Below, one piece after another: positions 13,961 to 50,829 of a stretch of 64,000 bases of DNA (the first letter of the stretch is position 1; every line of letters begins with the position of its first letter). Under the pieces are notes generated by a model that saw nothing but the letters and a program-made list of their open reading frames with translations, made no database searches and had not been told where the DNA came from. The position numbers and the translations under genes are program-made. Origin of the DNA: Octopus sinensis (Eukaryota); assembly GCF_006345805.1 (NCBI RefSeq), contig NW_021833019.1:1-64000 (forward strand), given 5' to 3'.

Positions 13961-15791
13961 CTTTTCCAATAGAAGAATAAAGATAATCAAAAGAAAGGAG
14001 AAATGTGATGTTATTGGCAAGCTATTCTAGTATAATTTATTTTATTGATACCTGTTGGATTAAAGTTAAAGCTGACTTTTGTGAGATTTGAACTCAGAAT
14101 GCAGAGGAACATAACTAAATAGAACAAAGCATTTAGTCTGGCACTCCATTCTGGACATAATTTTTGGAACAACTGTCCTTCAAAGTTCCATACCTCATGG
14201 AAAAAGAAAAGTGAGATGGGCAGGTTTCCTTCATTTTGTTTTTAATCTTTTTATGTTTCATACAATGGAAAATTTCCTCACAATTTCTGTCTTTCACATC
14301 CCACCCCTCAATTCTATGCCCTTTTTTCCTTCCATATCATTTAGGAAATAATTTTGATTCTGGTTCATTCTGCCAGCTTCATTTCCATGGGGTTTATTAT
14401 TTCTACCTCAGCTGGATCCAAACACCTACCATTACATTACTTGCCCACCACGTGTACAGTTTTGCTTCTACACCTCTGACAGGTTTGTGGGAGGGGTACA
14501 CGACCAGGTGATTAATAAGTTCACATCATAATCCTGACATGTTAGTATTGAGTTCAATCTAACTCCATCACACCTTGAGCAAGAATCTTTCAGCCTAGTT
14601 TTGGTTTGATCTTTTTTTTATATTTTGTCTTCTACCTATGTTTGTTTGAAAAAGGGACATTGCCTATGCCCTTCACAGACCATCTGGATGAATGAGGTTA
14701 ATGATAAGGCCATTGATGTGCCTTGTGAACCTTCATAAACCAACATTTGTGGGAAAGATATGAGCAGGGAAGGATTTCTTGAGGGAAACCACCATTTTGG
14801 GGAGGAAAAACTGAGCATAGCCATAAGTATGAGGCCTTTTAGGTAGGGCTGGATGGGGTTGGACATAAGAGGGATGATGAGAAGAGAAGAGGCAAATGGG
14901 ATGGGAACGTTTGAGAGGAGGTGGGGTGAGCTCAGCTAGCTGCAAGGAGCAGAAGCCATATAGTACAGTAGAAATGACAGAGAGAGGGGACAGAAAATGT
15001 CTGGGCATCAGACAATGGAGCACATCTAGGAGTGACTTTATAATTTATTGCATCCACCTCTGTTTTCAAAATCTCCTTCAGAGTGGTACAATTAAATGGC
15101 TTGAATGTGGATGTGGCTATTCAAAGCAACAGTAAAAACAGAAAAACACAGAAAAATTTCATGAAATATATGTAAAATATATATGAAAAATATATAAAAG
15201 AATAAGTAAAATATTTAAAAAATTGGCGAAAAACATTTACAATAAAATTCTAATTGATAGATATAAATCTTCCAGAAAATTAAAAAAAAACAGTGATATA
15301 TACAAACAAAACATGTCGATGAAGTGAATCTCATTGTGTAAGAATCAGCACAATGTGTGTTTAACATGATAACTGGCTGTTAATGCCTCACTGTCTGTTG
15401 ATTGGCTAAAATTGATCAGATTTTCCCAACTTTAATTCCAAATAACATCAGGTTCTTTAATTTATGAGATAAAGTAATTAGTTGAGCATAATCAAAATTC
15501 AGAACAGTATCGATACACCAAAATTGAAAACAAGCTGAGCAAAGTTAAAGGGAGCTGATTTTGTGAATGAAACTAACTAGATCCTAGACATTTAATTGTT
15601 AAAGTGGAAAAATTATCAAAAACGCCATTTCTATTCAGATTTTCAAATATATAATACTGTACCAATGGCTTTCTGTTTCTTATTCTACTATATATATATA
15701 TATAACTGCTACATTCTGTGTATCATCAAAATATTTAAAATATCCTCTCCAAACAATAAATATGCCTATTTTTAAAATTAATTTCTTGATG

Positions 15792-15851
15792 CTGTGGAAG
15801 AACAATGTGCTGAGGTTAGCGAGCCAAAATATTTAGAAATGGGACAACGAA
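15792..15851 (+). pseudogene. Mini-exon A3 (xVEEQCAEVSEPKYLEMGQR), canonical acceptor lost
   Basis: The acceptor position reads gaTG instead of gaAG, first Tyr is now Cys, donor GTAAGT intact. An in-frame AG 9 nt downstream could give a 51-nt exon. Confidence 0.5.
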
Positions 15852-16106
15852 GTAAGTACAATCAATATTGTTAGTACACAGCATGATCTTAGAACCTATC
15901 TTTAAAATAGACAGACAGCTAACTATTACGAAATATGTCACTCTAACTTTTGTCTATTAATATGCATGTACATGCAATTTATGTTTGTGTGAGTGTGTTT
16001 GAGTCTATCACATTAGTATTTATCATGGTAGAATCAGTACACAGCTATCTTCATTTAAATATTATTTATAGCCATGCTATTTGTTCTTTTTTTTCATTTC
16101 TTAAAG

Positions 16107-16148
16107 GCACGGATGGTACTTACATTAACGCTTCAAATAAACCTGTTG
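16107..16148 (+). CDS. Host-gene mini-exon B3 (42 nt): GTDGTYINASNKPV
   Basis: tttcttaaAG acceptor, GTAAGT donor, phase 1-1, YxN retained. Confidence 0.7.
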
Positions 16149-16394
16149 GTAAGTATATAAGCAATTTATTAACAAAAAAATTACTTTCATTAGAGCAAGA
16201 TTAGCAAATAGTTTGGCTCATTCTTTCTTTGAGTAGAATACGCAGCTTAATATATATGTATGATTGAAATTAAAACTTTGAAGATGCTAAAATTTCATTG
16301 CATATATAATAAACTTCTGCTGATGATAAATATACATATTACATATATGTTTAAAAATCTCATCACGCAATCAAACCAATGAAAGAATCTTTAT

Positions 16395-17218
16395 CTGGTC
16401 GCTCAACATGCTAAAAATAGCAGCCAAAGTATCCCCCTTCCTAAATCACACGTGCAAATATTCTTTATTATATTCAAAACACTGATGCAAATTTAGAAAG
16501 GATTATTGGTGGAAGATTTAATGATAGAAGCCAACAATGTGCTCATGAATTTTGGAAAGAAATTTATCTTTATTTTCAAATGTAATTTCAACAAAAGTTT
16601 ACATTCATCAAATATGACACTGCTAGATGCATTAGATTGCATCAACATACTTGCAACATATTTATAAATATAATTTGCAACTGCAATACAGTTGTTTGTG
16701 GTAGACAATCACAACTACCTATTGATTTAAAAGAAGAATTGTTTCTGTAACCAATTAATGGTCCTCGACAATTTAAATTTTTGATTACTAAAATCACAAC
16801 ATATTCACTTACAAAAAATTGTGAAACATGTTCACTCAATACTGAACATGAAATTACTTCCAGAAATTGAATCCTCCTGAATTTAAATATCTTGTTATTC
16901 AAATTAATAGATTTTTATTAATCAAAATTTTAATATGGAAGAAAGAATTAAATGTGATATAATGAACTTCTGATCAAAAAGGCAGCAAATATTTGGCACA
17001 AATTTTCCTCTAAAAGCTGCTGTTATTCATAGAGGACCAACATCTAGAGCAGGCCACACTGATTAAAACTAGAGATGATATTTGGGATGAAATCAATGAC
17101 AACATCATTACAAAAAGACATACTAAATTTCCTCCCAAATTGCCTGACATTGTTTTATCATTTATGGAAAAAAAATGTAAACAAATTAAAAAACAAAATT
17201 CAGTGGAATTGTAACTAA
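16395..17218 (+). pseudogene. Intronless ubiquitin-specific protease (peptidase C19/UCH) pseudogene, copy 1
   Basis: Cys-box-like GRSTC(frameshift)NSS at ~16397-16422, QQCAHEF at 16532, CETC..P.FKYLVIQINRF, His box AAVIHRGPTSRAGH at ~17015-17057, then IKTRDDIWDEINDNII and VLSFMEK. Stops and frameshifts present. Confidence 0.8.
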
Positions 17219-17704
17219 AAATTAAATTTAAGACGAAGATTGTATGATTGATTAATGATTATTTAGGAACCAAATTCATAAATAGAAAAAAGTAACAACA
17301 AGAACATTTTCTTAAATTTGGAAATTAAAAATAGTTTTTTTGGTTTATAAAATGGTTTTAATTTATGAAAAACCAAATATTTGCATAAAATTGACAGTAC
17401 AATAGTAGTCATTTTTTATTGCAAAATTAGGTTACATAAGAGTGATCTGGTAACTGATGGTTTTGGGTCTTGTTGTTTGTAACATTTGGTGAGCCATTGT
17501 GCAACCAACAACATAGTAAAAATCCCAGCCATTAATTCAATCAAAACATATATTTAAATTAAACATGAAAAAATTGAAATATTATCATCACTTACATGGA
17601 AAAATTGAAATATTATCTTTGAGTATTTTATAAGGTAAAATCTTAAATTATTAACTGACACATTATTAATTAACTTATAACAGCAATGCATGGAAAAATC
17701 ATGG

Positions 17705-18224
17705 ATTACATGGAAAAATGCGAGCATGCAAAGTAATATTCTTAAGATTATAAACCTGGAAAAGTCCAGGACAAGTTATTACACATTTAAAAGTATAGGA
17801 CAAACTATTACTTCAAGTAAAGTAAAGAATAAGAAACTTTTTACTTAAAACATTGCCACTAAAATTAAAATTTGAGTATTAAAAATCATTTTTTATAGTT
17901 TACAAATAACACTATACCTATTTAAATAGAATTTGGCTAATTTACTACCTTAAATACAGAAAAAAGTGACTAATTAGACAAACTTATAAATTAGATCAAC
18001 AGTTTTGTACAATAAATTTAAAAGATGAAAACTGTGAAGAGTGATAAATTAGAAGAAATGACATTCTTTGCTACAATATTTTAAGGAAAAAGTTGCTTAT
18101 TCTTTACTTTACTTGAAGTAATAGTTTATCCTGTACTTTCACAGGTGTAATAACTTGTCCTATACTTTTCCAGGTTTATAATCTTAAGAATATTACTTTT
18201 CATGCTCACATTTTTCCATGTAAT
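17705..18224. mobile_element. MITE-like element with ~150-bp terminal inverted repeats
   Basis: 17705-17854 (attacatggaaaaatgcgagcatg...) is the inverted copy of 18074-18224. The CATGGAAAAAT end motif also recurs at ~17563, 17594 and 17689. Confidence 0.8.
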
Positions 18225-18322: not shown

Positions 18323-18364
18323 ACTTGGATGATGCTTATGTTAATGTTTTGAAGAAACCTAGTG
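18323..18364 (+). CDS. Host-gene mini-exon B4 (42 nt): DLDDAYVNVLKKPS
   Basis: tttcttaaAG acceptor, GTAAGT donor, phase 1-1, YVNV. Flanking intron is homologous to that of B1. Confidence 0.75.
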
Positions 18365-30656: not shown

Positions 30657-30985
30657 TGAGATAAAGTAATTGGTTGAGCATAATCAAAATACAGAACAGT
30701 ATCAATACACCAAAATTGAAAACAAGCTGAGCAAAATTAAAGGGAGCTGATTTTATGTATGAAACTAACTAGATCCTAGACATCTAATCATTAAAGTGGA
30801 AAAATTATCAAAATCGCCATTTCTATTCAGATTTTCAAATATATAATACTGCACTAATGGCTTTCTATTTCTTATTCTACTATATATACATTTATATAAC
30901 TGCTACATTCTGTGTATCATCAAAATATTTATATCATCATCTCCAAACAATAAATATGCCTATTTTTTAAATTAATTTCTTGATG

Positions 30986-31045
30986 CTGTGGAAGAACAAT
31001 GTGCTGAGGTTAGCGAGCCGAAATATTTAGAAATGGGACAACGAA
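30986..31045 (+). pseudogene. Mini-exon A3' (duplicate of A3; same lost acceptor and Tyr>Cys)
   Basis: Differs from A3 by one synonymous base (CCA/CCG). Confidence 0.5.
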
Positions 31046-31293
31046 GTAAGTACAATCAATATTGTTAGTACACAGCATAATCTTAGAACCTATCTTTAAA
31101 ATAGACAGACAGCTAACTATTATGAAAAATGTCACTCTCTAACTTTTGTGTATTAATATGCATGTATGTATGTGTGAGTGTTTTTGAGTCTATCTCATTA
31201 GTATTTATTATGGTAGAATCAGTACACAACTATCTTATTTAATTAAATATTATTTATAGCCATGCTATTTGTTCTTTTTTTAATTTCTTATAG

Positions 31294-31335
31294 GCATGGA
31301 TGGTACTTACGTTAACGTTTCAAAGAAACCTACTA
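31294..31335 (+). CDS. Host-gene mini-exon B3' (42 nt): GMDGTYVNVSKKPT
   Basis: tttcttatAG acceptor, GTAAGT donor, phase 1-1, YVNV. Confidence 0.7.
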
Positions 31336-31574
31336 GTAAGTATATAAGCAATTATTAAGAAAAAAAATTACATTCATTAGAGCAAGATTAGCAAATAGTT
31401 TGGCTCATTCTTTCTTTGAGTAGAATATGCAGCTTAATATATATGTATGATTGAAATTAAAACTTTGAAGATGTTAAAATTTCATTGCATATATAATAAA
31501 CTTCTGCTGATGATAAATATACATTTTACATATATGTTTAAAAATCTCATCACGCAATCAAACCAATGAAAGAA

Positions 31575-32404
31575 TCTTTATCTGGTCGCTCAACATGCTA
31601 AAAATAGCAGCCAAAGTATCCCCCTTCCTAAATCACACGCGCAAATATTCTTTATTATATTCAAAACACTGATGCAAATTTAGAAAGGATTATTGGTGGA
31701 AGATTTAATGATAGAAGCCAACAATGTGCTCATGAATTTTGGAAAGAAATTTATCTTTATTTTCAAATGTAATTTCAACAAAAGTTTACATTAATCAAAT
31801 ATGACACTGCTAGATGCATTAGATTGCATCAACATACTTGCAACATCTTTATAAATATAATTTGCAACTGCAATACAATTGTTTGTGGTAGACAATCACA
31901 ACTACCTATTGATTTAAAAGAAGAATTGTTTCTGCAACCAACTAATGGTCCTCGACAATTTAAATTTTTGATTACTAAAACCACAACATATTCACTTACA
32001 AAAAATTGTGAAACATGTTCACTCAATACTGAACATGAAATTACTTCCAGAATTGAATTTCCTCCTGAATTTAAATATCTTGTTATTCAAATTAATAGAT
32101 TTTTAATTAATCAAAATTTTAATATGGAAGAAAGAATTAAATGTGATATAATGAACTTCTGATCAAAAAGGCAGCAAATATTTGGCACAAATTTTCCTCT
32201 AAAAGCTGCTGTTATTCATAGAGGACCAACATCTAGAGCAGGCCACACTGATTAAAACTAGAGATGATATTTGGGATGAAATCAATGACAACATCATTAC
32301 AAAAAGACAAACTAAATTTCCTCCCAAATTGCCTGATTTTGTTTTATTATTTATGGAAAAAAATTTAAACAAATTAAAAAACAAAATTCAGTGGAATTGT
32401 AACT
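31575..32404 (+). pseudogene. Intronless USP (peptidase C19) pseudogene, copy 2 (better preserved)
   Basis: One frame runs from ~31636 to 32255 with two stops: ..RFNDRSQQCAHEFWKEIY..KNCETCSLNTEHEITSRIEFPPEFKYLVIQINRF..FPLKAAVIHRGPTSRAGH. After a frameshift it continues IKTRDDIWDEINDNIITKR..DFVLLFMEK. Cys box TGC at 31596. Confidence 0.85.
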
Positions 32405-35400
32405 AAAAATTAAATTTAAGACGAAGATTGTATGATTGATTAATGATTATTTAGGAACCAAATTCATAAATAGAAAAAAGTAACAAGAACATTTTCTTAA
32501 ATTTGGAAATTAAAAATAGTTTTTTTGGTTTATAAAATGGTTTTAATTTATGAAAAACCAAATATCTACATAAAATTGACAGTACAATAGTAGTCATTTT
32601 TTATTGCAAAATTAGGTTACATAAGGTGAGCCTGGTAACTGATGGTTTTGGGGTTTTGTTGTTTGTAACATTTGGTGAGCTATTGTGCAACCAACAACAT
32701 AGTAAAAATCCCAGCCATTAATTCAATCAAAACATATATTTAAATTAAACATGAAAAAATTGAAATATTATCATCACTTACATGGAAAAATTGAAATATT
32801 ATCTTTGACTATTTTATAAGGTAAAATCTTAAATCATTAACTGACACATTATTAATTAACTTATAACAGCAATGCGTGGAAAAATCATGGATTACATGGA
32901 AAAATGTGAGCATGAAAAGTAATATTCTTAAGATTATAAATCTGGAAAAGTACAGAACAAGTTATTACACATTTAAAAGTATAGGACAAACTATTACTTC
33001 AAGTAAAGTAATGAATAAGAAACTTTTACTTAAAACATTGCCACTAAAATAAAATTTGAGTATTAAAATCATTTTATTATAGTTTACAAAATAGTTTACA
33101 AATAACACTATACTTATTTAAATAGAATTTGGCTAATTTAACCTTAAATACAGAAAAAAGTGACTTATTAGACAAACTTACAAATTGATGAACAGTTTTG
33201 TACAATAAATTTAAAAGATGAGAACTGTGAAGAATGATAAATTAGAGAAATGGCATTCTTTGCTGCAATATTTTAAGTAAAAAGTTGCTTATTCTTTACT
33301 TTACTTGAAGTAATAGTTTGTCCTGTACTTTTACAGGTGTAATAACTTCTCCTATACTTTTCTAGGTTTATTGAGATTACTAGACATGAAGCATAATGTA
33401 TAGAGCAGATTTGTAATGGTGAATGATTCACATCTTGATCAGAAACTGTTTTGAGTACCCACAATCAGTCCTGCTCATGGACACCACTGATATGAAAGTA
33501 ACATTGGAAGATAGTGAATGACTTCTCTTAATGGTAACATCATCATCATCATCGTTTAACGTCTGCTTTCCATGCTAGCATGGTTTCTACGATTTGACTG
33601 AGGACTGGCGAATCAGATGGCTACACCAGGCTCCAATCTGATCTGGCAAAGTTTCTACAGCTGTATGCCAACCACTCCGAGAGTGTAGTGGGTGCTTTTA
33701 CGTGCCACCGGCGCGAGGGCTAGTCAGGCAGTAATGGCAATGGCCACTCCAAATGGTGTTTTTTACATACCACCTGCACTGGCAACGACCTCGCTCGAAT
33801 GTTTTTTTCACATGCCACCAGCACAAGTGCCAGTAAGGCACACTGGTAACGATCACGCATTGAATGAATGGCGCTTTTTACATGCCACTGGCATGGAAGC
33901 CAGTAGTACTCTGGTACGATCATGCTCGGATGGTGCTTTAGCAATCACTAGTGCTAATTTTCATGCTAATTTTCTTCACTGAAAAACTCATTATTATAAT
34001 TTGACTATTAATTTCACTTTTTGTTTTTGTTGGGCTTTGTAATGTATTGCATATATTATATACTCTGTATTTTATACCCAGCTGTTGTATTCTACCTTGC
34101 ACAAACTAAAAGTTGCATCCTATTGACATTTACGAAAAACAACAAAGAAATGAGATAAATCCATAAGTGGTTATATGAAGATATTGTCTTAAAACATATT
34201 TATTTTGAAATAAGTTTTTCTAATGACCTTTCATGCTTTGTTTTCTTGAAAGTAGATAGTGTCAGAATAGTTGAGGTATGATTAAGTTCTTCTTTCATTT
34301 TGTAAGTATTGTTATTCATGAATTTAATACTGTATTTAAAGTCAAGCTATTTTACTGGTTTGACTTCTTTCATAATATTTCCTTAATGAAGATGTCATAT
34401 ATTGAAAACCATCTCTCAAATATGTTCTGGAAGTATAACTGTACATTCAAAAATATCCTGAACTCTAAACTTATATTAACAGTTTCTTACATTCTCTTGT
34501 ATTCTAACCTGATTATATCCATATGCAGAACATGGGTATATAAAATAATGCAAGTAATAGTAAACTAAAATCTAAGCCTATGAAAGAAGAAACTATTTAT
34601 ACTTATATTTCTCTGAATTATATATAATAAATAAATTTGTCTCTTTTTATCTTTTTCTTAGTTATGATTATATATATACAGGATTTGTGCACTATCATTT
34701 CATCCATATTCATTGGTGAAGCTTGGATTTTCTATATATTTCTAAAAATACTTATGGAATTAGAGGAATTAGATTTAATTTATTCTCATCATTTTATGTA
34801 TCTAAATTTATCTTTAAGAAACAAGAATTTTTCATTCACTATATAGTTCTGATATTTTTCTCATTTCACAGCAGTTTTAGTCTGAATTACATTTAGATAT
34901 TTAAGTTTTTATTAATTTGCTTAAATTCTTATTAAGTTTTTTGATATTAGTTACTTAAATTCTCAGACACTCAGTTACTAAATTAGCTTGCTACCTGTCT
35001 TTGTTTAAACTCAGCGTGAGTTTCTGAACTTACAAAATGGAAACATACAACCATGAATTCTTTCATTGCTAAGCATTCATATGTGTTTCAACTTGAAGTT
35101 CTTCAGAAATGGAAACCTGTAAAGCATCTTGCAATTAGAACCAATAACTTAATCTTGTTAAAGATCACCAAAACACAACACTGCACATCTCAAAAAAATA
35201 TCTATTACACCTTTTTCTCTCATGAATATTAAAACTTTATGTAAATTCTAACACTCTTCATATATTTTCCACTGATACTCCAACTATCCAAACTTCAGTG
35301 CCAAACAACTGACAATAAACAACCGTCACCAAGAAAATTTGCTCTCATCCCCACATCAGAATCGTACTGTAAACTCCCCTGACAGTTGCTGCAAAATCTA

Positions 35401-44622: not shown

Positions 44623-45169
44623 TGTAGTGAATGTGTGTATAAATAAATAAATACATAAATTGTTTCATGATTAAAAAGGAATTTATTTACATGGATTATA
44701 AATACACTACATACAAATGTAAGCAAATGCTACACATTGCTTGTATAGAGCACATATTAAAGATGAATATGTTTGTGTGTGTGGGTGTGTGCATGAATCA
44801 TTCGAAACAGTAGCCTGTAGGCATTTCTCTGTCGTCTCCAAAACGCGGGGCGAGATACATCTGTCTGCTGGTGTGTCAGCTGCGATTGTGTTTCTTTCTC
44901 TGTTTTTCCCTTGTATTTATAATATTTGAAACAGCTAGAAAGATAGACATACTGCAACAGAGTTACTACTTAAGTAGGTCAGCGCTTGTCCAGTTGAACT
45001 TCGCCCGACATGGCTGAGGTCGCAGGTCAAAGGAGATGATCAATCACTTTTTGACAGAACAAAGAGATCTTTAAATTTCGCGCCTATACATGCATTGGTT
45101 TTCGACGACCGATGATTCTTGGATTCGATTTCGAATCTAGGCTTAGAGAAGGAAGTGCTAACTCTTACA
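44623..45169 (-). repeat. 3' LTR (547 bp)
   Basis: Direct repeat of 49923-50467; roughly 3% different by eye. Confidence 0.97.
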
Positions 45170-45182
45170 CTACCCCCCTTCT
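45170..45182 (-). other. Polypurine tract
   Basis: Minus strand AGAAGGGGGGTAG immediately before the 3' LTR. Confidence 0.9.
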
Positions 45183-48100
45183 AGTGAGAAAGCCACAGAG
45201 ATCGAACGATATTGGAAATGTTATTTTTGTGTGTATGCAGAAAAATTTACACATTGTAACAGACAAATGAACAATAAAAATATGAATCAAAGGTTTACTG
45301 TTTGTATGTGCTATATGGTGGGCAATATGTATATGTGCCCAGGCAGAAATATGTTGGCACGTTGAAAGAGATGTGCGTCTATTGATTACTCGACCCACTA
45401 GAGGTCTAATAGAGGCAAGGTGTCTTTCAGTGGCGAAAAAGATCGAGTGGTAGCACACATGAGAATATGACTTGCAAATGTGTGTGAACATACAGTTAGC
45501 AAAAATATATTTACAAGAAGGCAAAACATTTTAAGGAGAAAACAAAAAATATGTACATGCAAAAATGAAAGAAATGTTCATCGGCAAAGTTCGATTGTGA
45601 AATGTTCCGTAAATGTTCATACAGATAGTTCTTCGTTGATGTGGAACAACGTTTCTGTTTCATTTTTTTCCTCCTTATGTACACGAATGTTCCTTGACTT
45701 CTCTGGGCTTGTATGCGGGTGATGCAGTTATGTGAGTTATGTGTTGATGTATGTATTTCATTTAGGAAGATGGACAAGTTAAAAGTTCGGAACCTACCCG
45801 AAAAACTTGCACAAACCTTGCTGGCCATCGAACTGTTCTTCCTGATTTGGTGTGTCGGGGTTGTGCAGAATCTTGTGTTTGCTGGAGTTGTTGAGTCTTT
45901 TCGAGGAAAGGAGGGAACTGGATGTAAGTCCTCCTCGATGAAGGCTTTTTTTAAACGATCAATCGAGACTGTATTTCGTTTGCCTCCAATATCGAGGACG
46001 AGATACTTGGGTTCTCTTTTGATAACCTTGTAGGGCCGGAATATGGTGGCCGAAGTTGAGATGGTATCCCATCATTCCTCACGAAAACATGAGTCTAAGT
46101 GTTGATATCTTTGGGGACTCGTGAAACGACGTTCCGTAGTCTGGGGCCTGAAGGTGATAACTGCGACATGGATGCCCGTAATCGGTGCACATATTGTTGT
46201 GGGTCAGGAAAGTCTTGTGAAACAGTTTCGATCATCTGCCCAGGTAAGGTGAGTGCTGTGCCATAAACGAGTTCAGCCAGAGTATATCCCAGTTCTTCCT
46301 TAACCGTGGATCGAATTCCAAGGAGGATGAGAGGGAGATGTTCCAACCAATGAGAACTGTCTGGAGCTGCTTTGATAGATACTTTGAGTTGGCGGTGAAA
46401 GCGTTCGACCATGCCATTTGCTGCAGGGTGGTAAGCCGTAGTGCGGGTGTGTTTACACCCGAGGAGACGAGTCAGCTCGGTGAAAAGGTGGGAATCGAAC
46501 TGACGTCCTCTGTCGGTGGTGATTGTTGCGGGTGTGCCAAAATGCGAAACCCATTGTGATATCAGCGTTTTGGCGACCGTTTCTGCTGATATATCAGATA
46601 AGGGCCAGGCTTCGGGCCATCGCGAAAAACGATCTACGCAGGTAAGCAAATATGAATAGTTCTGCGAAGGTGGCAGGGGTCCGACGATATCAATGTGAAC
46701 GTGCTGAAATCGTGCGTCGGGTTGCGAAAATGAACCGATTGGTGATTTTATGTGCCGGTGGATTTTCGCTTTTTGGCACGCAACACAACACTTGGTTCAT
46801 TCTCTGATATCCTTGTTGATACTGGTCCACACAAAACGGGTCGATATCAGCTTTTGAGTGGAGCGAATACCAGGATGTGACAGAGAATGCAGAGCGGAGA
46901 AAACTTCTCGACGATGTTTCTGTGGTACATAAGGGCGTTGGTAACGAGTGGAGATATCACACCAAATATTGGCTGTGGATGATGGTAGCGGAACATGCTG
47001 AAATTTCAGAGATGACGAATTCCGGAGCTTTAGAAGTTCTTCGTCATTCTCCTGGTCAGCTGCTATACGTGCCAGATTAATTGTAGACGTGGTGTGGATA
47101 GCATTGATCTGCGTGCGTGAAAGTGCATCGGCTGCTAAGTTGGTCGTCCCTTTGATGTGGCGTATGTCCGTCGTGTACTGCGATATGAAGTCGAGGTGGC
47201 GGATTTCTCTCGGCGAGTGGCGATCCGGCTTGGTGTTAAATGCATATACTAATGGCTATATACTAATGGTCGGTGTATATGGCAAAATTGGTACCTTCTA
47301 GCATGTGACGGAAATGCTTAACGGCCAGGTATGCCGCTAATAATTCCCGACTGAATGTGCTGTATTTGGTTTCCGCGGGTTTTAACCGCTTAGAAAAGAA
47401 AGACAACGGTTGCCATATACCGTCAACAAGCTGCTGTAGTACACCTCCAACTCCGGAATCGGATGCATCAACGAGTAAACATCGTGGGGCGTCTGGTTTT
47501 GGATAAACCAACATGGTAGCGTTGGATAACGCTTTTTTCAGGGCAGCGAAAGAAGCGAGTTGATCTTCGGTCAGAGCTATATCTGCATTTTTGCAAGTTC
47601 GCTGACGTAGCAAATCCGTGAGCGGTTGCGCTATCTCAGCGAGGTGGGGTACGAACCGTCGATAGAAATTCGCTAGACCGATATATTCCTTTAATTTGCG
47701 GACAGATGTAGGTGGTGGAAAATCCACGATGGCCTTGACTTTCTCGAGAAGGGGACGAATTCCATCCTTATCGACGATGTGCCCGAGAAAATGAAGGGAA
47801 GCAACTCCGAACAAACATTTAGTAGGGTTGATAACAACACCAAATTGACGGAGGCGTTCGAATAGTAGGTGAAGGTGTTGGTTATGTTCTTCGTCCGAGT
47901 TACTGGCCACGAGTATGTCGTCTATGTAGGCATAGACGAAAGGCAAACCTCTAGTCACCATGTCGATAAACCTTTGGAATGTCTGTGCCGCGTTGCGTAA
48001 ACCGAAAGGCATACGCAGGAATTCAAACATTCCGAAAGGTGTAGTAACTGCTGTCTTTGAGATGTCCGCAGGTTCCACTGGGATTTGGTTGTATGCTCGC

Positions 48101-49909
48101 ACCAGGTCGATTTTGGAAAAGATGCGAGCTCCATGCAGCGAGCTCAAAAAGTCTTGAAGAAAAGGCACCGGATAGGCATCACTGATAGTGTTTTTATTCA
48201 GCGATCGATAATCGCCGCAAACCCGCCAATCGGTCGATGATTTTTTGGGACGCAGTGTATCGGCGAGGGCCAGTTGCTGCTGGAAGGGCGGATGATTCCG
48301 AGGTCGAGCATGTGCTGGAATTCCCGCTTGACGGCCTGGAGACGATCAGGTGGTAACCTTCTGGACCTTGCAGCAACAGGTGGACCGCTGTTTTGATTTT
48401 GTGGTGGGTAACGTCGTGTTTAATCGGCTGGTTGTGGAATACTGGTCGAGCGACGTCCGGATATTCCCTCAGGATGGAACTGTGACGAGTCGTTGTTGTA
48501 AGCAATACAGTTGGGCTGACTGTAGCCATACGAGCGGCTATACCGCGCACAGTAAGCTTGGTGGTGCTGTCGACAAGTCGTCTGTTCTTTATGTCTACCA
48601 GGAGACCGAAATGATGCAGGAAATCGGCTCCTAAGATAGGGGTCGACAGTTTAGCGACGACGAATACCCACTGAAAAGTGCGGCGCGTAGTCCTAAGTTC
48701 AGTGATAGGACTGTTCACCGTAGGTTGGGATGGGTGAATGGTTGACTGCCTGAAGACAGACTGATGTCTCTTTTCTTTTTCCAGAAGTGTTGGAGACAGG
48801 GATGATGCTGACTTCCGCACCGGTGTCAACCAGGAAACGCGTGCCTGTTACCCGATCGCAAACGAAAAACAGGCGACTGTGTGGGTGCGAGCCAGGAACT
48901 TCCGTCGCGTTCAATTCCTGGCTGTGCCGTTTCCCGAACTGGGTGAGAAAAACGAGCACGGTACCGTACATTTTTGTGCCTGTGTTCCGAATGTTCGGTG
49001 GTACCAACACGTGTGAGTTGCGGGTAACACTGGGGCCTCGAGACCGTCTGCCATCTCGTCGCGATCGGCTGGTGCTTCGACGCTGGGGACTAAGCTTTAG
49101 GGCCTGTATTTGGGTTGTGAGGATCTGTATTTGAGCAGCTTGCTGCGTCATTAATGCACGCAAGTCCGAAATCTCGGAAGAACTGGTTTGTGCACGGAAA
49201 GGATTGGTACTGGGAGCGGCTGGCGTCACCGTTGATACCGTTGGATATTTGTGCGGTACTTCGGCTATTTTGTCAGCTAGCTCCGCCAGTTCTTCAATGG
49301 ATGTATTTTCTCTGGTAGAAGCGAGAACAACCTGGGTATTGGAGGGCAGACGCTGGAGAAAAAGCTGCTTGAAAATTTTTTCTCGGAGGCTCTCATCTCC
49401 GAGAAGCTGCTTCATTCTATGAAGAAGCTAGGACGGCGTTTTGTCACCCAATTCTTCCGATATCAGAAGCTGGCGAAGTCGTTTCTGTTGCGATTCGGAG
49501 GTTCTGTTTATCAGCGTGGTTTTAAAAGTGTCGTACGACACAGAACCGGGTGGTGCCATGATAAGATCACGGACAACGTTTGTTATTTCTGGCGACAGAG
49601 AACCGATACAAACGAACATGCGAAGTCGAGACGAATCGCTCAGTATTCTGTGAGAGGAAAACTGTGCCTCTATATGGTAAAACCATAATGCAGGGTCGTG
49701 GGTCCAGAATGGTGGAATTTTCAAAGAAAGAAATCGCCGCTTGGAATGCCATGTCGATCGGAGGTATGATGTTGGCCGCTGGATTCTGTTCCGGGAGGGC
49801 CATTGTGTTCGTCGGAATTCTCAGGTGTTTCGTTGCGGGGTGATGTGCAAGCTGTAATTCTTCGACGCGGTTGATGAAGCTGGTTCCGGGGAAGGCGCAA
49901 TTCGTTTGA

Positions 49910-49920
49910 CGGGGTCACCA
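49910..49920 (-). other. Primer-binding site complementary to tRNA-Trp 3' end
   Basis: TGGTGACCCCG, 2 nt after the 5' LTR; eukaryotic tRNA-Trp ends in CGGGGTCACCA. Confidence 0.88.
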
Positions 49921-49922
49921 AA

Positions 49923-50467
49923 TGTACTGGATGTGTGTGTGTGTATAAATAAATACATAAATTGTTTCATGATTAAAAAGGGATTTATTTACATGTATTA
50001 TAAATACACTACATACAAATGTAAGCAAATGCTACGCATTGCTTGTATAGAGCACATATTAAAGATGAATATGTTTGTGTGTGGGTGTGTGCGTGAATCA
50101 TTCGAAACAGTAGCCTGTAGGCATTTCTCTGTCGTCTCCAAAACGCGGGGCGAGATACATCTGTCTGCTGGTGTGTCAGCTGCGATTGTGTTTTTTCTCT
50201 GTTTTTCCCTTGTATTTATAATATTTGAAACAGCTAGAAAGATAGACATACTGCAACATAGTTACTACTTAAGTAGGTCAGCGCTTGTCCAGTTGAACTT
50301 CGCCCGACATGGCTGAGGTCGCAGGTCAAAGGGAGATGATCAATCACTTTTTGACAACGAAGAGATCTTTAAATTTCGCGCCTATATATGCATTGGTTTT
50401 TGACGACCGATGATTCTTGGATTCGATTTCGAATCTAGGCTTAGAGAAGGAAGTGCTAACTCTTACA
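49923..50467 (-). repeat. 5' LTR (545 bp)
   Basis: Direct repeat of 44623-45169. Confidence 0.97.
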
Positions 50468-50829
50468 CATGGATTCTCTAAATTTAATCTATGAGCTGTA
50501 CAGTAAAGATTTATAAGACATTCCAAAGATTCTCCATCTGAGATTCTTTACACGAACAGATACACACACTTCAGTGTCTCCATCGAGAGTTTAACCGACA
50601 CATGCTTTCAACCACATATTTACTAATACTGGGAATTCTTTTCAATCAAAATTCTTTTTGTTCTGTTAGCGACCGGCTTCAACTTCCTTGAGATAAACTT
50701 AAATAAAACTCAAAGGAAAACAAACAGTCGGTCTTCCGTTAGTCGCATATTATTACGTAGACGAAGAGAGATCACTCCAACGGCAATGAAAATGCAAACG
50801 AAAAGAATGACGATCTAAGGGAAGTAATT

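What the first reader, a model, noticed from the sequence alone, without database searches (positions are those of the whole stretch)
16319..17218. Intronless, AT-rich deubiquitinase (USP/C19) gene captured inside the exon-array intron
Seen: homology to the other cassette units stops abruptly at ~16318 (after AAACTTCT). The sequence that follows encodes, in order, a Cys-box remnant, QQCAHEF, CxxC, P..LVIQINRF, VIHRG....GH, W.EIND and a VLLFME end, spanning about 270 codons without introns. A cleaner copy lies at 31575-32404. Known: these are the Cys, Gln and His boxes of USP deubiquitinases. Cellular USPs are usually longer and spliced, whereas compact intronless ones occur in large DNA viruses and in tandem arrays such as mammalian USP17. 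Inference: cargo of a mobile element or endogenised virus, or a retrocopy. It may mark an unannotated DUB-carrying transposon or viral family in this lineage.
Basis: partly seen in the sequence, partly recalled or inferred. Interest (0 to 1): 0.75.

Follow-up and report, generated by a model that had tools for sequence, protein, structure and literature searches.

The report
Dead Helitron fragment carrying truncated deubiquitinase
This is a broken piece of a repeated DNA element, likely a rolling-circle jumping gene, that carries a ubiquitin-removing (USP) domain whose catalytic cysteine region is deleted; the pairing of such transposons with USP domains was already listed in a 2024 survey, so the finding is largely ordinary.

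Summary
The USP remnant is real but spans 16457-17172, not 16319-17218. The 'Cys-box remnant' is not one: the true Cys box is deleted in every same-family copy found. The remnant lies in a dispersed non-autonomous repeat (116 copies of one end) with a 5' TC plus 10-bp hairpin, a 12-bp subterminal inverted repeat and a GTAA|T 3' end. A sister family in this genome has similar ends and encodes OTU, Rep, PIF1 and then this USP, with PIF1 and USP in one frame. In trees the window's USP groups with that transposase-fused USP (100/95), apart from 30 giant-virus and 6 cellular USPs. Best reading: a dead deletion derivative of a Helitron-like (HLE2) element, cut again at a 7-bp microhomology and copied by segmental duplication of the host exon array. 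It is not a virus or retrocopy. No autonomous copy with these exact ends and no empty target site were found. UCH-bearing HLE2s are in print (HELIANO 2024), and this scan noted the fusion before, once elsewhere in this genome. The one possibly new point is proto-Helentron-like ends in an animal.

The parts
16107..16148 (+). Host 42-nt micro-exon candidate of the array unit upstream of the element
   Evidence: AG/GT sites in the sequence; splicing not shown
16312..16318 (+). 7-bp microhomology AACTTCT joining the host unit to the interior of the element (deletion junction that removed about 1.1 kb of the element's 5' arm, with its hairpin end)
   Evidence: Present in 3 element-free host paralogues and in 2 dispersed element copies shown; dispersed copies run about 1.1 kb further 5'
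16319..16455 (+).
   Evidence: Kept in USP-less derivatives; no Pfam hit; no match to the Cys box of P0002 or P0011
16457..17172 (+). USP (C19, PF00443) domain remnant: Gln box, Cys-rich fingers, CxxC, His box, W.EIND; Cys box missing; 3 stops, 3 frameshifts
17173..18223 (+). Non-coding 3' arm of the element, ending CATTTTTCCATGTAA before a T
   Evidence: Shared end with unrelated flanks in dispersed copies
17705..17855 (.). Inner arm of a 151-bp inverted repeat (inverted copy of the 3' end, 92% identical to 18074-18224)
   Evidence: also in dispersed copies
18183..18194 (+). 3' subterminal inverted repeat CTTAAGAATATT, about 30 bp from the end; its partner lies next to the 5' hairpin in complete copies
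31499..33371 (+). Second copy of the same truncated element, made by segmental duplication with the host unit; USP at 31644-32361 (2 stops, 1 frameshift); last about 45 bp of the element lost
   Evidence: 2.0% divergence from the first copy over the USP

Best explanation
The stretch is a dead, twice-truncated piece of a dispersed repeat, likely a non-autonomous Helitron-like (HLE2) rolling-circle transposon, whose USP remnant lacks its Cys box. Shown: the repeat family, its ends, the two deletion junctions, neutral decay, later segmental duplication, and a sister family in which the related USP follows OTU, Rep and PIF1. Inferred history: an autonomous RepHel-USP element lost Rep, helicase and the Cys box by internal deletion; the derivative kept both ends and was moved in trans by RepHel (nick at the 5' TC, helicase unwinding, strand transfer into an A^T site without duplication). 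One copy landed in the host micro-exon array, lost its 5' end at a 7-bp microhomology and was copied passively with more than 10 kb of host DNA. Inferred role in the intact ancestor: the C-terminal USP removed ubiquitin from the transposase or its partners to protect them from degradation. The window copy is predicted to be catalytically dead and has no sign of function.
For: Repeat: 65 matches in the own genome (40 of 615 candidates scored), 9 near-full copies in the duplicated array and the rest dispersed. The hairpin end has 116 matches against 0 for the reversed control; hairpin z -4.6, 0 of 200 shuffles as good. 5' end A|TC: A 30 of 30, T 29 of 30, C 27 of 30. 5 of 5 copies with both ends in hand stop at CCATGTAA|T. 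Sister family B: OTU 36.5 bits and Helitron_like_N 48 bits, both over cut-off; PIF1 C-terminal hits below cut-off; PIF1 runs into the Cys box and USP; XP_052827946.1 (P0003) is one ORF from PIF1 motif VI into USP. Family B ends: A before the start in 8 of 9, TC start in 8 of 9; CTAG|T in 5 of 6 end motifs and CTAA|T in 1. A further locus has RepHel fragments upstream of a USP with 69-79% DNA patches to the window. Trees: 98/94 (19 rows) and 100/95 (47 rows). Differences by codon position show no third-position excess (52/44/42). Segmental blocks over 10 kb at 93-98%. UCH in HLE2 is in PMC11417382; Helitron-borne VTD deubiquitinases are active in vitro (PMC9741609).
Against: No copy with the window family's own ends plus Rep or helicase was found, so the link to RepHel is by homology and similar ends. 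Window and family B USPs are only 33-40% identical. No empty target site was found, so A^T without duplication is not proven. The family B subterminal repeat is weak (best 10 of 12). DUF6570, the HLE2 marker, hit 5 loci, none of family B, and family B Rep/helicase fragments were about equally far from HLE1 and DUF6570 loci. Two searches for long fused proteins found none (weak by the tool's own note). Language-model neighbours were giant-virus USP clusters.
Confidence: 0.88

Rival explanations
1. Endogenised large DNA virus gene (compact intronless viral USP).
For: Compact, intronless. Atlas feature search ranks Nucleocytoviricota UCH clusters first (0.92-0.94, but 127-160 shared features, under the 170 typical of same-family hits).
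Against: No relative in IMG/VR for P0002, P0008 or P0003. Best blastp to 72 viral USPs: E 0.03 for the window protein. Not nested among 30 viral USPs. No polB, capsid or integrase seen among the long ORFs of the flanks read. Neighbours are Rep and PIF1.
Confidence: 0.03
2. Processed pseudogene (retrocopy) of a host USP.
For: Intronless and disabled; sits in a gene.
Against: None of 11 top PF00443 loci of the genome matched at E under 0.5 (11 of 109 hits tested). The matches of P0002 that were followed up are repeat-family or RepHel-linked. Copies share fixed hairpin and CATGTAA ends, with no poly(A) or duplication seen.
Confidence: 0.02
3. A non-autonomous element of another class (foldback/MITE-like cut-and-paste) that picked up a USP piece from a Helitron.
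For: 151-bp inverted repeat in the 3' arm; the AT at both ends could be read as a 2-bp duplication; no Rep or helicase inside any family member examined.
Against: No terminal inverted repeats, only an asymmetric 12-bp subterminal one. Both ends resemble those of the RepHel-coding family B. An inner inverted repeat is a described DINE-1 feature (PMC4067079).
Confidence: 0.06
4. The remnant has been co-opted by the host gene (exon or regulatory role), which is why it recurs in the array.
For: 9 copies sit in the same position of the duplicated host locus.
Against: All 9 share one junction and ride in blocks over 10 kb; they carry stops and frameshifts and show no third-position excess (41/48/25); several lose parts of the element.
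Confidence: 0.02

Closest known systems
UCH (PF00443)-bearing HLE2 Helitron-like elements, subgroups c and d (HELIANO, PMC11417382; read: passages, sections 22-24, supplement rows of Tables S3, S10, S11)
   Same: USP domain carried by a RepHel element; OTU upstream of Rep; non-autonomous derivatives that keep both ends.
   Different: The paper counts UCH among domains in separate ORFs, while family B has it in frame after PIF1. The canonical HLE2 has a 3' stem-loop and a T^T target; here the hairpin is at the 5' end and ends read TC..GTAA/CTAG in an A|T context. The window copy has no transposase.
Proto-Helentron of Phytophthora and HLE2-reverse/FoHeli3-5 (PMC4067079 sections 11, 16; PMC11417382 section 24; PMC5148889 passages)
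   Same: No endonuclease after the helicase; 5' stem-loop upstream of a short left inverted repeat; 3' repeat 20-40 bp from the end; CTAG end and A^T insertion (proto-Helentron).
   Different: Those are from an oomycete and fungi and carry SET/TIR or no cargo; here an animal, with USP after the helicase; target not proven by an empty site.
DINE-1/HINE non-autonomous Helentrons (PMC4067079, passages)
   Same: Deletion derivatives with 12-15-bp subterminal repeats, an inner inverted repeat and one terminal hairpin.
   Different: No T-rich target; inner inverted repeat is 151 bp; hairpin lies upstream of the coding strand.
VTD- and OTU-bearing Helentrons (PMC9741609, passages)
   Same: Deubiquitinase domain as part of a rolling-circle transposon.
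   Different: Different DUB class; those have a C-terminal AP endonuclease and tested activity; this USP is untested and the window copy lacks its Cys box.

Membership tests
USP / peptidase C19 | PF00443 score over the curated cut-off | tested here: inconclusive
   Window read-through 17.7-18.3 bits, cut-off 23.9; relatives P0002 33.9 and P0003 30.6; one dispersed copy 29 bits
USP / peptidase C19 | USP fold | tested here: met
   Model of P0002 (pLDDT 64.9) hits USP14/USP2 at E 2e-6, TM 0.46-0.51; the window sequence itself was not folded
USP / peptidase C19 | Catalytic Cys box | tested here: not met
   Missing in the window and in all same-family matches; present in P0002, P0011 and family B
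USP / peptidase C19 | His box and following Asn/Asp | tested here: met
   VIHRG....GH and W.EIND align with P0008, across a frameshift
USP / peptidase C19 | Ubiquitin-cleaving activity | not testable with these tools
   needs an assay
Helitron-like elements (HLE) | Rep plus PIF1 transposase in the element or its autonomous partner | tested here: inconclusive
   Met for sister family B and a C3 locus; no partner with the window family's own ends found
Helitron-like elements (HLE) | Fixed asymmetric ends with a hairpin, dispersed copies with unrelated flanks | tested here: met
Helitron-like elements (HLE) | No target-site duplication, shown by an empty site | tested here: inconclusive
   Flanks fit WA^TW, but no empty site in fetched loci or 4 laid runs
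HLE2 | Short (11-18 bp) subterminal inverted repeats | tested here: met
   11 of 12 in the window family; 10 of 12 at best in family B
HLE2 | DUF6570 marker or placement in the HLE2 transposase clade | tested here: inconclusive
   DUF6570 not detected in decayed family B copies; fragments equidistant from HLE1 and DUF6570 loci; no reference HLE2 set was at hand for a tree
Canonical Helentron (subgroup b) | AP endonuclease after the helicase; 3' stem-loop; T^T target | tested here: not met
   USP follows PIF1 directly; hairpin at the 5' end; A|T context
Endogenous large DNA virus | Viral core genes nearby or nesting among viral USPs | tested here: not met
Processed pseudogene | Close spliced host parent | tested here: not met
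   (11 of 109 host USP hits compared)

The most novel reading that the evidence does not exclude
USP-bearing HLE2 elements of animals use proto-Helentron-type ends (5' TC with a 5' stem-loop, short subterminal repeats, 3' CTRR, A^T target), a structure reported so far only in Phytophthora and Fusarium, with a transposon-specific USP in the slot where Helentrons carry their endonuclease. Annotators that expect canonical HLE2 ends would then miss hundreds of non-autonomous copies per genome, and deubiquitination would be a built-in part of rolling-circle transposition.
Probability: 0.4. Interest if true: 0.45.

Novelty: new member of a known kind. Interest (0 to 1): 0.2.

Why it matters
The locus itself is a dead passenger. 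Its value is in annotation: it defines a non-autonomous repeat family with at least 116 copies of one end and ties it to USP-bearing Helitron-like elements. It adds the end structure of such elements, which the sections of HELIANO read here do not describe for subgroups c and d. It also adds one more case of rolling-circle transposons carrying deubiquitinases (OTU, VTD, USP), which points to host ubiquitin control of the transposase as a testable idea.

Tried and rejected
PDB sequence search with the read-through protein: one chance hit. Three searches for longer fused homologues: none (weak). IMG/VR scans with P0002, P0008, P0003: none. Metagenome scan with P0008: one locus, an ordinary cellular USP. 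Searches for an autonomous partner: PF14214 gave 150 scored hits that were not followed one by one (2 fetched, both HLE1-type); PIF1 tail and DUF6570 searches gave no locus with the window family's ends. Empty-site searches: none in fetched loci; in 4 laid runs the C3 insertion is present, with contigs of two runs bridging both junctions. Sequencing runs: no RNA holder listed, which says nothing on expression; splicing across the element stays untested. The idea that the element's 3' end transduced the host exons was rejected: duplicated blocks run past both ends for over 10 kb. The 17705-18224 palindrome as a separate MITE was rejected: it is the constant 3' arm of dispersed copies. Literature: 6 searches found no paper on the ends or activity of USP-bearing HLE2s; HELIANO figures and supplementary figures S17-S19 could not be seen and may bear on the novelty of the end structure; subscription papers and Repbase are not covered.

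Full report
Observation. The second copy read through with X scores 17.7-18.3 bits against Pfam UCH (E 0.002-0.003), under the cut-off of 23.9. A search of 1.84 billion proteins gave 16 hits. The best, P0002 (75% identical), passes UCH at 33.9 bits, and its model matches solved USP14 and USP2. So the USP identity is real. Its limits are 16457-17172, with 3 stops and 3 frameshifts; the second copy, 31644-32361, has 2 stops and 1 frameshift.

The Cys box is missing. P0002 and P0011 carry the Cys box about 35 residues before the point where the window's homology begins. Searching the genome with P0002 gave 34 matches; every same-family match starts at residue 61 or later. Two other copies (L068, L070) share a different upstream sequence that matches P0011, so window 16455/16456 is an internal deletion junction. 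The 16319-16455 stretch has no Pfam hit and survives in derivatives without any USP. The region is no more AT-rich than the adjacent intron (72% against 71%).

The repeat family. The stretch has 65 matches in the own genome (40 of 615 candidates scored). Nine near-full copies share the host flank; the others have unrelated flanks. Dispersed copies extend about 1.1 kb further 5' to an end with a perfect 10-bp hairpin (z -4.6). That end has 116 matches with at most one mismatch, against 0 for the control. In 30 of those, the bases before the hairpin read A 30, T 29, C 27, preceded by T 23 or A 6. The other end is CATTTTTCCATGTAA followed by T (window 18223). Five copies with both ends in hand are 0.5-2.0 kb long. 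A 12-bp subterminal inverted repeat lies next to the hairpin and about 30 bp from the far end, and a 151-bp inverted copy of the 3' end lies inside the 3' arm. The window copy lost its 5' end at a 7-bp microhomology, AACTTCT, found both in element-free host units and inside the element.

The link to Helitron-like transposases. Weaker protein matches led to a sister family, B. Its copies carry OTU (36.5 bits), Helitron_like_N (48 bits), PIF1 C-terminal motifs (below cut-off) and then a USP with its Cys box, with PIF1 and USP in one frame. P0003, annotated in Octopus bimaculoides, runs from PIF1 motif VI into the USP in one ORF; this also marks the host as octopus-like. Family B starts A|TC (A in 8 of 9, TC in 8 of 9) and its end motif reads CATTTTTCAATTCTAG|T (CTAG 5, CTAA 1 of 6), close to the window family's end. 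Its 5' fold-back is weaker (z -1.7) and its subterminal repeat 10 of 12 at best. A locus on C3 has RepHel fragments upstream of a USP with 69-79% DNA patches to the window. No copy with the window family's own ends and a transposase was found, so this step is inferred.

Against virus and retrocopy. In a 19-row tree the window USP, P0002, P0004 and the family B USPs form one side of a branch at 98/94, apart from 7 cellular USPs. With 30 viral USPs (dereplicated from 72 full domains among the 80 loci fetched of 120 listed) support is 100/95, and the group is not nested among viral rows (long branches make the deep order unsure). IMG/VR scans found no relative. The Atlas does rank giant-virus USP clusters first, at feature counts typical of distant kin, so a remote viral origin of the domain is open. 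None of 11 top host USP loci matched at E under 0.5.

Age and selection. Copies in the duplicated array differ by 0.3-5.8%, independent insertions by 7-15%, and one subfamily by about 19%. Differences show no third-position excess. The nine array copies ride in blocks of over 10 kb, so they are segmental duplicates and not new jumps. One dispersed insertion is also present in runs of related organisms.

How it likely worked. From established Helitron biology (recalled): the HUH Rep domain nicks the 5' end, PIF1 unwinds one strand, and the strand is joined into a new site without duplication; non-autonomous derivatives need only the ends. The flanks fit a WA^TW target, but without an empty site a duplicated AT cannot be excluded. 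For the USP in the intact ancestor, the best analogy is the VTD domains of zebrafish Helitrons, which cleave K48/K63 chains and were proposed to protect transposition proteins from degradation (PMC9741609, passages). This is inference. The window copy cannot do it, as it has no catalytic cysteine.

What is known. HELIANO (PMC11417382; sections 22-24 and supplement rows) lists UCH as almost exclusive to HLE2 and enriched in subgroups c and d, in separate ORFs by its account. It describes a 5' stem-loop for HLE2-reverse and proto-Helentron and says no proto-Helentron-like sequence was found in its 404 species. The proto-Helentron lacks the endonuclease, ends in CTAG and inserts between A and T (PMC4067079, sections 11 and 16); FoHeli3-5 have a 5' hairpin only (PMC5148889, passages). 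Earlier notes of this scan report the same fusion in other genomes and once in this one; one pointed me to subgroups c and d. Placement of family B in HLE2 was not settled here.

Verdict. A real but ordinary fossil: a new, dead member of a known kind. Interest 0.2. The only point that may be new is the proto-Helentron-like end structure in an animal USP-bearing element (probability 0.4, interest 0.45 if true).

Noticed in passing
window 15790-16148, 18323-18364, 30985-31336 and two units before 7300: Host micro-exon pairs encode tyrosine motifs (EEQYAEV, KYLEM, TYVNV), likely the cytoplasmic tail of a receptor (motif reading recalled, not searched). The locus is duplicated in blocks over 10 kb at 93-98% on C5 (3 places) and 4 small contigs; some may be haplotypes.
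   Followed up: partly
protein P0024: 684-aa protein with a reverse transcriptase (RVT_1, 21.5 bits, below cut-off; looks Penelope-like from recall) followed by an intact USP (94.8 bits): a possible retroelement-USP fusion, on a separate branch from the Helitron USPs.
   Followed up: no
L061/L142/L076 (G000 C22:4.13 Mb, C9:31.05 Mb, C9:22.20 Mb): Family B carries two deubiquitinase domains, OTU before Rep and USP after PIF1, in an element of about 6.7 kb; all copies seen are decayed.
   Followed up: yes
L385:9101 and L389:8749: Two family B copies hold an inverted 3'-end motif 300-500 bp inside their 5' end, reminiscent of the inner inverted repeat of the window family.
   Followed up: no
L075 (C13:55.59 Mb), L074 (C7:99.93 Mb), L367 (C30:12.13 Mb): Further divergent USP remnants of the same kind, two with a PIF1 fragment on the same locus: at least three or four RepHel-USP lineages in this genome.
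   Followed up: partly
L111, L112 (C4:90.26 Mb, C6:35.17 Mb): Two host USP genes with very long single-exon frames (3775 and 885 aa), so intronless USPs are not only viral in this genome.
   Followed up: no
L113-L124 (small contigs): Several USP hits on small unplaced contigs read with in-frame stops that look like short introns; possibly from another organism in the assembly.
   Followed up: no
L070 (C2:156.62 Mb): An older subfamily (about 19% diverged) has two tandem 5' hairpin ends, as described for some FoHeli elements.
   Followed up: no
window 45165-49914: A Gypsy-like LTR retrotransposon (gag, protease, RT, integrase ORFs on the minus strand) between 540-bp direct repeats at 44632-45170 and 49934-50468, 97% identical.
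   Followed up: no
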